NCBI GenBank assembly: GCA_006212045.1
Contig: PZPK01000010.1
Span: forward strand, 55,314-119,313
Direction of reading: 5' to 3'
Length of the DNA stretch: 64,000 nt
Origin: Oleiphilus sp.
GTDB taxonomy: Bacteria; Pseudomonadota; Gammaproteobacteria; Pseudomonadales; Oleiphilaceae
The position numbers were made by a program, and so were the translations under genes. The notes under the pieces were generated by a model, which worked only from the letters and a program-made list of their open reading frames with translations, was not told the origin of the DNA and did not search any database. This document shows positions 62,297-64,000 of the stretch, piece after piece. Each line of letters starts with the position of its first letter. Position 1 is the stretch's first letter.

Positions 62297-62382
62297 GAAC
62301 AGGTCACGAAGAAGCGATCGTGATTTGTCTTCCTTGAAGAAACCCCTGTTGATAGGAGCCAAACTTTGGCTCCTCTTTTTTT
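62297..62382 (+). ncRNA. candidate structured small RNA ending in an orphan plus-strand terminator
   Basis: A closing stem gaacagg/cctgtt (62297-303 / 62345-350) encloses two hairpins (tcacga/tcgtga and tcttc/gaaga). A terminator ggagcca/tggctcc plus TCTTTTTTTT (62355-62382) follows. There is no plus-strand ORF upstream. Confidence 0.25.
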
Positions 62383-62435
62383 GTCTTCTGTTTTTTGCCA
62401 TCTGGCCCGGTTGTCCCCCATCCATGCACTCACAC

Positions 62436-63038
62436 TTATTGTGAGCGCTGCCGATCAAGCGATCTGTAAGCCACGGCTTCTGCCAGATGCGATGACTGGA
62501 TATCCGCATCACCGGCAAGATCTGCAATCGTCCTGGCTAAGCGGATGATCCGGTGCGCTGCACGCGCAGACAGTGCCAGTTTTTCCATCACACTCTCCAG
62601 CCACCGGTTCAAGTCAGGAGAAAGTGGACAATAACGCTGCAAATCACCGGGATCGAGGCGGCTATTGGCTTTGCCTTGCCGCTGCGACTGCCGTTCTCGG
62701 GCATCAATCACACGCTGTTTTACCTGCGCACTGCTTTCCTGCGCTTTATCGTTGCTCAACAGAACATCGCCGGACTGGTAACCGACTTCAACATGCATAT
62801 CAAAACGGTCCAGCAGAGGACCGGAAAGCTTTCGGCGGTAATGTTGAATCTGCTGGGGTGAATCCTGACAATCAATTTTGGGGTGCCCCAGATACCCGCA
62901 TGGACAGGGGTTCATCGCCGCCACCAGTTGGAAACTGGCCGGAAACCGGACACTCCGGTTGGCACGTGCAATCATGACATGGCCGCTTTCAATGGGTTCT
63001 CTTAACATTTCCAACGCTTTCCGGTCGTATTCTGACAA
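62436..63038 (-). pseudogene. comM: 3' fragment of comM/yifB (Mg-chelatase-like AAA+ competence protein), truncated by a transposon insertion
   Basis: Only the C-terminal ~200 aa are present (LSEYDRKALEMLREPIESG...AAMNPCPCGYLG...SARAAHRIIRLARTIADLAG). Full-length ComM is ~500 aa. Family similarity stops near 63038, and the ORF's first 16 codons read into AT-rich element DNA. Confidence 0.85.
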
Positions 63039-63042
63039 ACCC

Positions 63043-63164
63043 CAAATTAAATGAGAATATAAAGCCACAGAATGGGCTATCTCAAGCAATTTACGTCTAA
63101 ATAAAAGAGAATGATCCCCACATTATTTGAGAACAGGTTACAATAAATCACATTAAATGAGAAT
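63043..63164 (+). repeat. four direct ~16-bp repeats, putative TnsB-binding sites of the transposon end
   Basis: caaattaaatgagaat (63043-58), ctaaataaaagagaat (63097-112), cacattatttgagaac (63119-134) and cacattaaatgagaat (63149-164). All have the same orientation, and all lie between the comM junction and the tnsA start. Confidence 0.6.
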
Positions 63165-63176
63165 GGATTCAGAGGC

Positions 63177-63839
63177 ATGCCAGTACGCGAAATAAAAGCC
63201 GGATATTCGAACGTCACCGGAAAATACCCAAGCATCAAAATGAACCGTGCCATTAGCTTTGAATCGACGCTTGAGCGAGATTTCTATCTACTTTTGGACC
63301 ATGAGAATTCCGTTGATTTTTACGAAGAACAGCCTCGAACAATAAAATACAAGCATCTAAGTAAAAACAGGACCTATACGCCGGATACGTTGGTACGGAG
63401 GCTGTCTGAGTCTCAAGAAGACTACACGCTGTACGAAATCAAATATCGATCGGACCTTTTTTCAAACTGGATGAAGCTAAAACCCAAATTCAAAGCAGCC
63501 ATCCGCTTCTGCAACGAGCAGAACTGGAAGTTCAAAATAATGACTGAAGTTGAGATTCGTACCCCAAGGCTTAAGAATCTGGAGTTTCTAGATCACTTCA
63601 GAAGTACCGTATCCCAAAATGAGGATGCGATCAGGCAAGCCCTCCTGGAATCCATGCTGAGCCTGCAAAAGGCAACTCCTCAAGAACTCATCGCTGTAAC
63701 ATTTAGTGATTTTTCAAATCGCGCAGAAGCACTTCCAGTCCTATGGAGAATGATTGTTGAAGGAGGTATAGGTGTAAACCTTGATTGTCCTTTGGATATG
63801 AACAGCCCTCTTTTCCTGGAAGATTCCGAATATGCGTAG
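63177..63839 (+). CDS. tnsA: Tn7-like transposition protein TnsA (endonuclease)
   Basis: 220 aa. FESTLERDF, YTPDTLV and YEIKYRSDL correspond to the E-D-K catalytic residues of the TnsA restriction-endonuclease fold. A C-terminal winged-helix-like region follows. Confidence 0.88.
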   Translation: MPVREIKAGYSNVTGKYPSIKMNRAISFESTLERDFYLLLDHENSVDFYEEQPRTIKYKHLSKNRTYTPDTLVRRLSESQEDYTLYEIKYRSDLFSNWMKLKPKFKAAIRFCNEQNWKFKIMTEVEIRTPRLKNLEFLDHFRSTVSQNEDAIRQALLESMLSLQKATPQELIAVTFSDFSNRAEALPVLWRMIVEGGIGVNLDCPLDMNSPLFLEDSEYA

Positions 63840-64000
63840 CTTTACGATCTCTCCCGAAGAAGTGCTCATGTGGCGAGGGCTCAAGTATCGCGTTACTCGA
63901 ATCCTAGATCTCGAGCATGTACTCGCAGTCAACTTGCACACAGGAGAGCTGGACAAAATACGCACAGATGAGCTTCAACCAGAGTTTTCGTCGTCTGGTT
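63832..64000 (+). CDS. tnsB: Tn7-like transposase TnsB, N-terminal fragment (runs off the window)
   Basis: The ATG at 63832 overlaps the tnsA stop (ATGCGTAG). The frame MRSFTISPEEVLMWRGLKYRVTRILDLEHVLAVNLHTGELDKIRTDELQP... stays open to the window edge. Position and N-terminal pattern fit TnsB. This frame is not in the ORF track because it has no stop. Confidence 0.6.
   Translation, partial: MRSFTISPEEVLMWRGLKYRVTRILDLEHVLAVNLHTGELDKIRTDELQPEFSSSG

What the first reader, a model, noticed from the sequence alone, without database searches (positions are those of the whole stretch)
62436..64000. Tn7-like transposon inserted in comM; only its tnsA-proximal edge is visible and the cargo lies beyond the window
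The minus-strand ORF 62436..63089 carries only the C-terminal ~200 aa of the ~500-aa ComM/YifB AAA+ protein. Family similarity begins abruptly at ...LSEYDRKALEMLREPIESG (about 63038).

The preceding 16 codons (MLEIAHSVALYSHLIW) are read from AT-rich DNA that does not look like comM. Within 140 bp of that point come four direct repeats, tnsA and an overlapping tnsB.

comM is an established attachment site for one Tn7-like lineage, the Tn6022/AbaR-type islands of Acinetobacter. Tn7-like elements routinely carry defence, resistance or CRISPR-guided targeting cargo. If this region holds an undescribed system, it is most likely inside this element, downstream of 64000.

The tnsA-proximal end faces the retained 3' part of comM. 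By analogy with Tn7 and glmS, the target selector probably recognises the highly conserved coding sequence just left of the junction.
Basis: partly seen in the sequence, partly recalled or inferred. Interest (0 to 1): 0.85.

Follow-up and report, generated by a model that had tools for sequence, protein, structure and literature searches.

The report
Active Tn7-like transposon splitting comM
The window ends in the first 968 bases of a complete 28.2-kb Tn7-like transposon that has split the competence gene comM; it is a known kind of element, but it inserts about 70 bp from the site used by the well-studied Tn6022 and lacks Tn6022's extra targeting protein TnsF.

Summary
Window 62436-63032 (-) is the 3' third of comM. 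The transposon end starts at 63033 and holds four 16-bp repeats, followed by tnsA and the start of tnsB.

Contigs 100% identical to the window, from the same samples, give the rest. The element is 28,208 bp and carries tnsA-tnsB-tnsC-tniQ. A convergent 577-aa gene follows, probably a distant tnsE. About 21 kb of cargo comes next, then an inverted distal end. A 5-bp duplication (TATTC) flanks the element, and the missing 917-nt comM 5' part lies beyond it in the same orientation.

The same element also occurs in a second, non-comM site with its own duplication (GTTGT). It therefore moved recently.

It is not Tn6022 proper. No TnsF homologue is present. The insertion lies just 3' of the Walker B codons, about 70 bp from the Tn6022 site. 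Four genomes (Endozoicomonas, two Pseudoalteromonas, Pleionea) carry relatives at exactly this position and orientation.

The most likely selector is TniQ itself (about 0.55, inferred, not shown).

Verdict: a new variant of a known kind, of moderate interest.

The parts
62436..63032 (-). 3' part of comM/yifB: codons 305-502 plus the stop codon. It is cut off from its 5' 917 nt by the insertion.
   Evidence: TIGR00368 304-499/499 and Pfam Mg_chelatase + Mg_chelatase_C. tblastn with E. coli YifB. Joining it to the 5' part on L009 restores an intact 1509-nt ORF.
63028..63032 (.). Target-site duplication, copy next to the tnsA-proximal end (TATTC on +, GAATA on the comM strand; comM nt 913-917).
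   Evidence: The same 5 nt follow the distal terminus on L009 4711-4715. The bases on either side of them differ.
63033..63176 (+). tnsA-proximal transposon end. The terminus is 5'-TGACAAACC. Four putative TnsB-binding repeats lie at 63043-63058, 63097-63112, 63119-63134 and 63149-63164.
   Evidence: Repeat family. 20 of 26 nt form an imperfect inverted repeat with the distal terminus. Identity between the two insertion contexts starts exactly at 63033. Relatives L013 and L014 share the TGACA terminus and similar spacing of the first sites; L012 and L071 share the TGACA terminus.
63039..63089 (-). Spurious 5' extension of the comM-fragment ORF. Together with 63033-63038 it gives 19 codons read from transposon-end DNA.
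   Evidence: The native ComM sequence here is ..LDELPEY (L009); the window reads ..HLIWGLS|EY.
63177..63839 (+). tnsA (220 aa), the endonuclease subunit of the heteromeric transposase.
   Evidence: PF08722 + PF08721. NF033179, below its cut-off. 2346 relatives at E<=1e-3. PD..ExK motif invariant.
63832..64000 (+). First 56 codons of tnsB (621 aa in full), overlapping tnsA by 8 nt.
   Evidence: The full gene on L001 1775-3640 has Mu-transpos_C and rve hits, and the DDE motifs QIDHT / YADNG / HVERL can be read in the sequence.

Best explanation
This is the tnsA-proximal end of an intact, recently mobile, 28,208-bp Tn7-like transposon with a heteromeric TnsA/TnsB transposase. It is inserted site- and orientation-specifically in comM of an Oleiphilus sp. 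genome. The junction lies between codons P304 and E305, 4-8 bp 3' of the Walker B Asp-Glu codons, and carries a 5-bp duplication.

Shown:
- The element's boundaries, duplication and gene order.
- The split comM.
- A second insertion site.
- Four relatives in other genera at the identical comM position and orientation.

Gene order, in window-equivalent coordinates (window = L003 + 62978):
- tnsA 63177-63839
- tnsB 63832-65697
- tnsC 65694-66569
- tniQ 66536-67783
- a 577-aa gene, 67761-69494 (-)
- a GHKL-ATPase / 350-aa / 261-aa / Eco57I-like methyltransferase module, 69808-75710
- a 441-aa gene (-)
- a 1473-aa RTX-like protein with its type I secretion genes (277 aa, HlyD-like, C39-ABC)
- five small genes, one of them CsrA-like
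- distal end at 91240

Inferred mechanism:
- TnsB binds the repeated 16-bp sites in both ends, and TnsA and TnsB cut the element out.
- TniQ (415 aa; 374-391 aa in relatives) binds the conserved comM sequence on the tnsA-proximal side of the insertion point. This is roughly the codons for ALEMLREPIESG, window about 62975-63015.
- TniQ recruits TnsC, which positions the transposase one fixed distance away. This would be the Tn7/TnsD-glmS logic without the TnsF adaptor that Tn6022 needs. I put this step at about 0.55.
- The convergent 577-aa protein is most likely a distant TnsE analogue. It would direct the alternative, non-comM insertions such as the second site seen here (about 0.5).

The insertion inactivates comM. 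ComM is a helicase that promotes recombination of transformed DNA, by established knowledge.
For: Identity of the extension to the window:
- L001 and L002 are 100% identical to the window over 1943 and 4682 nt.
- The proteins carry consecutive NCBI locus tags C9356_09175..09235 on one 140-kb Oleiphilus MAG contig.

Core genes:
- Pfam TnsA_N/C, Mu-transpos_C/rve, TniB/AAA_22 and TniQ.
- Walker A/B of TnsC and the DDE of TnsB can be read in the sequence.

Ends:
- Inverted copies of the repeat lie at L007 66-101, and the termini share 20 of 26 nt.
- TSD TATTC lies on both sides, and the comM 5' part (312-aa ORF, ChlI + Mg_chelatase) is in the same orientation.
- The restored comM is an intact 1509-nt ORF.

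Mobility and exact boundaries:
- ENA scaffold_2615 holds the same 28,208 bp. The stretches of the element that the comM-context contigs cover (its first 14,917 nt and last 5,656 nt) are 100% identical to it.
- There it is flanked by unrelated DNA with its own TSD, GTTGT. The two flanks join into one continuous ORF.
- Identity to the comM-context contigs stops exactly at the termini.

Family:
- 80 loci from genome representatives carry TnsA relatives.
- L012, L013, L014 and L071 have the comM 3' fragment next to tnsA, starting at the same codon, with a TGACA terminus and a duplication on the same E-Y/F codons.
- Their TniQs cluster in a neighbour-joining tree and share a conserved C-terminal ~70 aa.

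No TnsF: tblastn with three candidate TnsF-like ORFs found nothing in the 28.3-kb scaffold at E<=1e-3. Two of these ORFs, L041_520 and L090_482, are homologous to each other.

No cas genes, CRISPR array or Rfam RNA.

577-aa family:
- It occurs in 22 of the 80 related loci, in comM and non-comM elements alike.
- hhalign against Tn7 TnsE is colinear, with E 4.6e-4 and probability 33%.
- One member touches Pfam TnsE_C.
- The literature states that TnsE homologues are almost universal in comM-targeting Tn7-like elements (PMC11406308).
Against: - No experiment or structure links TniQ to comM DNA.
- Class B TniQs (374-415 aa) are in the size range that Faure et al. (PMC10293859) regard as possibly too short to select targets alone.
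- Pfam finds no HTH in the C-terminal region.
- hhalign to Tn7 TnsD covers only the N-terminal core.
- AlphaFold models of TniQ and of the 577-aa protein were unusable (pLDDT 34 and 43).
- The TniQ tree may simply mirror the phylogeny of the elements.
- The link of the 577-aa protein to TnsE is weak.
- Everything beyond 64000 rests on metagenome contigs, not on the window itself.
- The proximal terminus is TGA rather than the canonical TGT, although CA-3' is kept on both transferred strands.
Confidence: 0.85

Rival explanations
1. comM is recognised not by TniQ but by the conserved ~550-670-aa protein next to tniQ (the 577-aa gene here). It would act as a TnsF-like adaptor bound to TniQ, a functional analogue of Tn6022 TnsF that is unrelated in sequence.
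For: It sits directly after tniQ in the three closest relatives. In L012 and L013 it is co-oriented with tniQ, with short gaps that look operon-like. It has no confident family assignment. The TniQs are short.
Against: The same family occurs in elements with other comM positions and in eight elements with no comM nearby (L020, L024, L026, L030-32, L036, L046). It was not found within 7 kb of tnsC in the class B locus L071. There is a weak colinear match to Tn7 TnsE. The literature expects a TnsE in such elements (PMC11406308, PMC11014353).
Confidence: 0.2
2. The element is a Tn6022 derivative that lost tnsF. It depends on a selector supplied in trans, or it reached comM before the loss and is now only passively inherited.
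For: It shares the target gene with Tn6022. Its TnsB falls with the Tn5053/Tn6022 group (33-36% identity to plasmid TniA). Faure et al. note many elements with a short TniQ and no visible partner, which might use selectors in trans (PMC10293859).
Against: The insertion position differs from the Tn6022 site by about 70 bp, and four independent relatives that also lack TnsF use exactly this position. The end sequences differ (TGACAAACC.. versus TGTCATTTACAG..). Two insertion sites carry copies with no difference found over the stretches available for comparison, which argues for current mobility.
Confidence: 0.1
3. The second, non-comM context is an assembly chimera at the tips of ENA scaffold_2615. 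On this view there is no evidence of recent movement.
For: Only 54-55 nt of alternative flank are present at each end, about one assembler k-mer. The flank was found in no other sequence held.
Against: The two independent tips carry the same 5 nt (GTTGT) directly at the termini. Joined, they give one uninterrupted reading frame. Another scaffold (L010) breaks exactly at the distal terminus, as expected if the flanks differ within the population.
Confidence: 0.07

Closest known systems
Tn6022 / AbaR-type Tn7-like transposons of Acinetobacter
   Same: Both have a heteromeric TnsA/TnsB, a TniB-type TnsC and a short TniQ. Both insert in comM in one orientation with a 5-bp duplication, with the tnsA-proximal end facing the comM 3' part, and probably carry a TnsE-like gene. 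Both inactivate comM. The TnsA proteins are about 34% identical (L090).
   Different: - Tn6022 requires TnsF (about 480-500 aa, zinc fingers plus an inactivated tyrosine recombinase), encoded just after tniQ (PMC10293859, PMC11014353). No homologue is present here.
- I place the Tn6022 duplication ACCGC (PMC11014353) on the GGG codons about 70 bp 5' of this site, by analogy with the TnsF-bearing locus L041.
- The ends differ.
Prototypic Tn7 (TnsABC+D at glmS, TnsE pathway)
   Same: Both share the five-function logic, multiple TnsB sites in both ends and a 5-bp duplication. In both, the tnsA-proximal end faces the sequence thought to be bound by the selector. Both have a second pathway to non-att sites.
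   Different: Here the target lies inside, and destroys, a non-essential gene, rather than downstream of an essential one. TniQ is 415 aa against TnsD's 508 aa and aligns only over the N-terminal core. TnsC is the short TniB type (291 aa). The candidate TnsE is barely recognisable.
Other comM-homing elements: Tsy tyrosine-recombinase transposons and type I-B1 CASTs with a comM spacer
   Same: All converge on comM as an integration site (PMC10293859, PMC9881144).
   Different: This element has no tyrosine recombinase, no cas genes and no CRISPR array.
TnsF-less comM-inserted relatives in genome collections (classes A, A' and C of this report)
   Same: They share the TnsA family and gene order, and usually the ~600-aa accessory gene. 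All split comM.
   Different: They use other positions: the GGG codons near aa 280 in either orientation, or near aa 359. Class B (this element) uses codons 304/305. I found no description of these classes in the papers I could search.

Membership tests
Tn7-like transposons (heteromeric TnsA/TnsB transposase) | TnsA endonuclease gene next to a TnsB DDE transposase gene | tested here: met
   PF08722/PF08721 for tnsA. Mu-transpos_C and rve hits, plus DDE motifs, for the 621-aa TnsB. The genes overlap by 8 nt.
Tn7-like transposons (heteromeric TnsA/TnsB transposase) | AAA+ regulator TnsC/TniB and a TniQ/TnsD-family protein | tested here: met
   PF05621 TniB at 7e-56; PF06527 TniQ at 1.5e-24. hhalign of the TniQ alignment to Tn7 TnsD: probability 82% over the core.
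Tn7-like transposons (heteromeric TnsA/TnsB transposase) | Inverted ends with several internal transposase-binding repeats and 5'-TG..CA-3' termini | tested here: met
   Four repeats at the proximal end and at least two inverted repeats at the distal end. The termini are TGACAAACC.. and ..TTTTTTACA. The third base of the proximal end is A, not T.
Tn7-like transposons (heteromeric TnsA/TnsB transposase) | 5-bp target-site duplication | tested here: met
   TATTC at the comM site and GTTGT at the second site.
Tn7-like transposons (heteromeric TnsA/TnsB transposase) | Site- and orientation-specific insertion at a conserved attachment site | tested here: met
   Five elements in five genomes share the same comM codon and orientation.
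Tn6022 / AbaR family sensu stricto | tnsF (orf3/tniE) encoded with tniQ and required for comM targeting | tested here: not met
   No tblastn match at E<=1e-3 to the TnsF-like proteins of L041 and L090 in the whole 28.3-kb scaffold. The gene after tniQ is convergent and unrelated.
Tn6022 / AbaR family sensu stricto | Insertion at the Tn6022 position in comM (duplication ACCGC) | tested here: not met
   The duplication here is comM nt 913-917 (E305/Y306). The TnsF-bearing locus L041 and 22 other loci break at the GGG codons near aa 280. ACCGC is from PMC11014353. Placing it on the GGG codons is my inference.
Tn6022 / AbaR family sensu stricto | Distant TnsE homologue in the element | tested here: inconclusive
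   hhalign of the 577-aa family against Tn7 TnsE: E 4.6e-4, probability 33%. One of 17 members hits TnsE_C at 0.015. The structure model was too poor to use.
CRISPR-associated transposons (CAST) | cas effector genes and a CRISPR array inside the element | tested here: not met
   No Cas Pfam or NCBIfam hits among the element's proteins, no tandem arrays and no Rfam match.
Tn5053/Tn402 (TniABQR) | No TnsA; res-site hunting with a TniR resolvase | tested here: not met
   TnsA is present and no resolvase gene was found. TnsB is 33-36% identical to plasmid TniA, so the two are related but distinct.

The most novel reading that the evidence does not exclude
Class B elements (this one plus the relatives in Endozoicomonas, Pseudoalteromonas and Pleionea) would be an independent, TnsF-free solution to homing into comM. 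A compact TniQ of about 375-415 aa, with a conserved C-terminal region that looks helix-turn-helix-like, would read the LREPxExG-coding segment directly and place the insertion just 3' of the Walker B codons.

Together with classes A, A' and C, this would make one ~250-bp stretch of comM a hotspot where related Tn7-like lineages have repeatedly evolved new selector specificities and orientations.

Separately, the cargo's four-gene unit (GHKL-ATPase, 350-aa, 261-aa, methyltransferase) could be an undescribed defence system related to restriction-modification.
Probability: 0.45. Interest if true: 0.6.

Novelty: new variant of a known kind. Interest (0 to 1): 0.45.

Why it matters
Tn7-like elements that home into comM are known from Tn6022/AbaR, the main resistance island of Acinetobacter baumannii. 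In Tn6022, targeting needs the extra protein TnsF.

This element, and a small clade of marine relatives, reach a different fixed position in the same gene without TnsF. The element appears to be moving now.

If TniQ alone does the targeting, this is a simpler four-protein, sequence-specific insertion system aimed at a gene conserved across bacteria. It would also show how Tn7 selectors re-evolve specificity within one target gene.

The element also carries a widely distributed four-gene methyltransferase/GHKL module that current defence catalogues do not name.

In practical terms, the finding tells annotators that the 217-codon ORF at 62436-63089 is a truncated comM and that this genome is probably impaired in natural transformation.

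Tried and rejected
- Genome-collection scan with the N-terminus of the RTX-like protein, to extend the contig. Nothing was found; the source MAG is not a species representative.
- Look-up of the NCBI version of the RTX-like protein (P0241): not on record. The ENA version, obtained through the cluster listing, worked.
- TniQ could not be sent to the representative-protein search, so TnsA was used instead.
- TnsA alignments of 41 and 7 sequences were too divergent for the locus scan. A 5-sequence alignment worked.
- Identity of the 577-aa protein:
  - Pfam, NCBIfam, PADLOC, and PDB sequence searches (single sequence and profile) gave nothing usable.
  - An AlphaFold model with 9 sequences had pLDDT 43, so no fold search was run.
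- TniQ C-terminal domain: no Pfam HTH. A single-sequence AlphaFold model had pLDDT 34.
- Search for the empty alternative site in JGI metagenomes: no match. It is not in the window or in any fetched locus either.
- I considered, and rejected, that L007 1-55 showed a missing comM 5' part or a rearrangement. It is a second insertion site.
- L090 (Acinetobacter, Tn6022-type ends plus a TnsF-like gene) could not serve as a reference for the Tn6022 site, because its flank is not comM.
- Peters et al. 2014 (Mol Microbiol), which may list comM elements outside Acinetobacter, is not held. Prior description of TnsF-less comM elements therefore cannot be excluded.
Full report
**Observation**

- ORF 62436-63089 (-) matches only the C-terminal 40% of ComM/YifB: TIGR00368 positions 304-499 of 499, and Pfam Mg_chelatase 115-201 plus Mg_chelatase_C. 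It aligns to E. coli YifB from about residue 303.
- Four direct copies of a 16-bp motif, CAhATTAAATGAGAAT, lie at 63043, 63097, 63119 and 63149. This is far more than chance: 0.12 expected per window at up to 2 mismatches, and 7 against 0.9 at up to 3 mismatches, with 0 of 200 shuffles reaching 7.
- tnsA (63177-63839) hits both TnsA Pfam domains. An overlapping ORF from 63832 is the start of tnsB.

**Extension beyond the window**

An exact-protein look-up of TnsA returned Logan contigs from SRR6144754 and SRR6144761. They are 100% identical to the window over 1943 and 4682 nt.

Further look-ups, using the GHKL protein, the RTX-like protein and a 203-aa protein, returned an ENA scaffold of 28,317 bp and a Logan contig that spans the far junction.

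The encoded proteins are annotated on an Oleiphilus sp. MAG. They carry consecutive locus tags C9356_09175-09235 on a 140-kb contig. The distal genes (C9356_19380-19400) sit on a 17.6-kb contig. The MAG assembly breaks inside a long internal repeat of the RTX-like gene.

**Anatomy**

Window-equivalent coordinates use window = L003 + 62978 = 91296 - L007.

The element spans 63033-91240, which is 28,208 bp. Its GC content is 39-50% over most of its length (the two secretion genes reach 52-55%), against 50-54% for the host.

Genes in order:

- tnsA (220 aa)
- tnsB (621 aa; Mu-transpos_C/rve, DDE motifs visible)
- tnsC (291 aa; TniB, Walker A/B visible)
- tniQ (415 aa)
- a convergent 577-aa gene
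- a GHKL ATPase (773 aa), a 350-aa gene, a 261-aa gene and an Eco57I-like N6-methyltransferase (561 aa)
- a 441-aa gene (-)
- a 1473-aa RTX-like protein, with a 277-aa gene, a HlyD-like gene and a C39-peptidase ABC exporter (all -)
- genes of 459 and 93 aa (-)
- a CsrA-like gene and genes of 279 and 203 aa (+)

The distal end carries two inverted copies of the repeat. Its terminus..ATTCTCATTTATTGTGGTTTTTTACA, shares 20 of 26 nt with the inverted proximal terminus, TGACAAACCCCAAATTAAATGAGAAT.

There are no cas genes, CRISPR arrays or Rfam RNAs.

**Junctions**

On L009 the distal terminus is followed by TATTC and then by the comM 5' part. This is a 312-aa ORF on the minus strand with ChlI and Mg_chelatase domains, ending ..GVLYLDELPEY.

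In the window the proximal terminus is preceded by the same TATTC (63028-63032). Removing the element and one copy of the duplication restores an intact 1509-nt comM reading ..LYLDELPEYDRKALEMLREPIESG... The duplication is comM nt 913-917 (E305 plus two bases of Y306). That places it 4-8 bp 3' of the Walker B Asp-Glu codons.

The residues G-L-S before EYDRK are encoded by the transposon end.

**A second insertion site**

ENA scaffold_2615 contains the whole element, but its 54-55 nt tips are not comM.

- The proximal flank ends ..GGCTGTTGT.
- The distal flank begins GTTGTTTGAAG...
- A different 5-bp duplication, GTTGT, therefore flanks the element.
- The two flanks join into one continuous reading frame..SGQRLLFEELINSD...

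The comM-context contigs cover the element's first 14,917 nt and its last 5,656 nt. Over these stretches they are 100% identical to the scaffold, and identity ends exactly at the termini. Another scaffold stops exactly at the distal terminus.

This fixes the boundaries independently. It also shows that the element transposed recently within this sample set. The replicon that carries the second site is unknown.

**Comparison with Tn6022**

Two papers show that Tn6022 needs TnsABC, a short TniQ (369 aa) and TnsF. TnsF is about 480-500 aa, has zinc fingers plus an inactivated tyrosine-recombinase fold, and is encoded just after tniQ. It binds the Walker B-coding region of comM. Tn6022 also encodes a distant TnsE (PMC10293859, PMC11014353). 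The Tn6022/AbaR duplication is ACCGC (PMC11014353).

A locus scan of 185,579 species-representative genomes with a TnsA alignment returned 80 loci. tblastn with this element's proteins and the restored ComM sorted them by flank.

| Class | Loci | Position of the break in comM |
|---|---|---|
| A | 23 | GGG codons, about aa 280; tnsA faces the comM 3' part. Includes L041, which encodes a TnsF-like protein. Its flank GCCGC matches ACCGC at 4 of 5 positions. |
| A' | 6 | Same region, opposite orientation |
| C | 5 | About aa 359 |
| B | 4 (L012 Endozoicomonas, L013 and L014 Pseudoalteromonas, L071 Pleionea) | Exactly the codon used here |
| none | remaining 42 | No comM fragment adjacent to tnsA |

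The class B loci share this element's orientation, its TGACA terminus and a duplication on the same E-Y/F codons. L013 and L014 also have similarly spaced first sites; the site pattern found one site in L071 and none in L012. Three of the four (L012-L014) are also the closest relatives by TnsB (51-56%) and TnsC (53-61%); L071 is more distant (TnsB 34%, TnsC 47%).

TnsF homologues were found only in L041, L083 and L090. They were not found in this element or in the other loci.

By gene content, position and ends, the element is therefore not Tn6022 sensu stricto. It is a related lineage with its own attachment point, about 70 bp further 3' in comM.

**Which protein selects the target**

Only two genes beyond tnsABC are shared within class B: tniQ and the ~600-aa gene.

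*tniQ.* Class B TniQs cluster together in a neighbour-joining tree. They share conserved residues to the C-terminus, including E-F-x-S-A-I..L..Y..S..N-I-G-x-x-L-G-x-D-R-S. To my eye this resembles a helix-turn-helix. Pfam does not confirm that, and the single-sequence model was useless.

*The ~600-aa gene.* This family occurs in 22 of the 80 related loci, across all classes, including eight elements with no comM nearby. It gives a weak colinear hhalign match to Tn7 TnsE (E 4.6e-4, probability 33%). One member touches Pfam TnsE_C. The literature states that TnsE homologues are almost universal in comM-targeting elements (PMC11406308).

In Tn7 and its relatives, the tnsA-proximal end faces the selector's binding site; this is established knowledge of Tn7/attTn7 and the CASTs. 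Here that side is the comM 3' part. Its first 60 nt encode the strongly conserved (A/V)L(E/D)xLREPxExG segment and keep many invariant bases across the five hosts.

I therefore favour direct recognition of this segment by TniQ (about 0.55). The ~600-aa protein would act as a TnsE-like selector for other targets. That could explain the second insertion site.

**Cargo**

The GHKL / 350-aa / 261-aa / methyltransferase unit recurs with the same four genes in an unrelated MAG and in Vibrio parahaemolyticus integrase islands. In the MAG the order and orientation are the same; in the Vibrio islands the methyltransferase gene is inverted. There it sits beside other defence-like genes. Methyltransferase-GHKL pairs are also cargo of other Tn7-like relatives.

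The GHKL protein's N-terminus resembles that of BbrUII/HgiDII-type restriction enzymes. Its C-terminus is a histidine-kinase-type ATPase. PADLOC-DB v2 names no system.

This is a candidate undescribed module related to restriction-modification. I did not pursue it further.

**Verdict**

The kind of element is known. The variant appears not to be described in the literature I could search, although Peters et al. 2014 was not available. What marks the variant is the absence of TnsF, a distinct fixed position in comM, a small marine clade, and apparent current mobility. Interest is moderate.

Noticed in passing
L003 6830-12732 (window-equivalent 69808-75710); also L093 8001-13985, L094/L095 8001-13979: A conserved four-gene unit: a GHKL ATPase with a restriction-enzyme-like N-terminus and a histidine-kinase-type C-terminus, genes of about 350 and 260 aa, and an Eco57I-like N6-methyltransferase. 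It recurs in an unrelated MAG and in Vibrio parahaemolyticus integrase islands. PADLOC-DB v2 does not name it. It is a candidate undescribed defence module.
   Followed up: partly
L003 1-54 and L007 1-55 (tips of ENA scaffold_2615): The same 28,208-bp element sits in a second, non-comM site with its own 5-bp duplication, GTTGT. The joined flanks form one ORF (..SGQRLLFEELINSDISAIEEELA..) of unknown identity and replicon.
   Followed up: partly
L012-L091 (80 loci from species-representative genomes): Relatives of this TnsA split comM at three or more distinct positions: about aa 280 in both orientations, aa 304/305, and about aa 359. Almost all lack a TnsF homologue. comM looks like a hotspot for repeated evolution of Tn7-like target specificity.
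   Followed up: partly
L096 355-8449 and L097 244-8338: Two consecutive tnsA-tnsB-tnsC sets, the nearer one followed by a 338-aa tniQ, lie next to a 203-aa comM 3' fragment. This is a tandem array of Tn7-like elements at comM in a metagenome contig.
   Followed up: no
L090 9840-16094 (Acinetobacter sp. 161) and L083: These are Tn6022-type elements: end TGTCATTTACAG.., a 380-aa TniQ and a 482-aa TnsF-like protein. In L090 the flank next to tnsA is not comM; only a 41-aa comM tail lies about 650 bp away. In L083 no ComM-like reading was seen in the 252 nt upstream of tnsA.
   Followed up: no
L003 14572-18993 and L007 4625-13746 (window-equivalent 77550-86671): The cargo encodes a 1473-aa RTX-like calcium-binding protein with a long exact internal repeat, which breaks the Logan and NCBI assemblies. 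Next to it lie a 277-aa gene, a HlyD-like protein and a C39-peptidase ABC exporter. Together they look like a type I secretion or bacteriocin-like export set.
   Followed up: no
L086 3066-3743 and 9203-9874: Two comM 3' fragments lie 6 kb apart on one strand in a Sediminibacterium MAG. This suggests a duplicated or re-targeted attachment site.
   Followed up: no
window 62355-62390: A GC-rich hairpin, GGAGCCAAACTTTGGCTCC, followed by a T-run on the + strand lies just beyond the comM stop codon. It looks like an intrinsic terminator. I did not assign it to a transcript.
   Followed up: no
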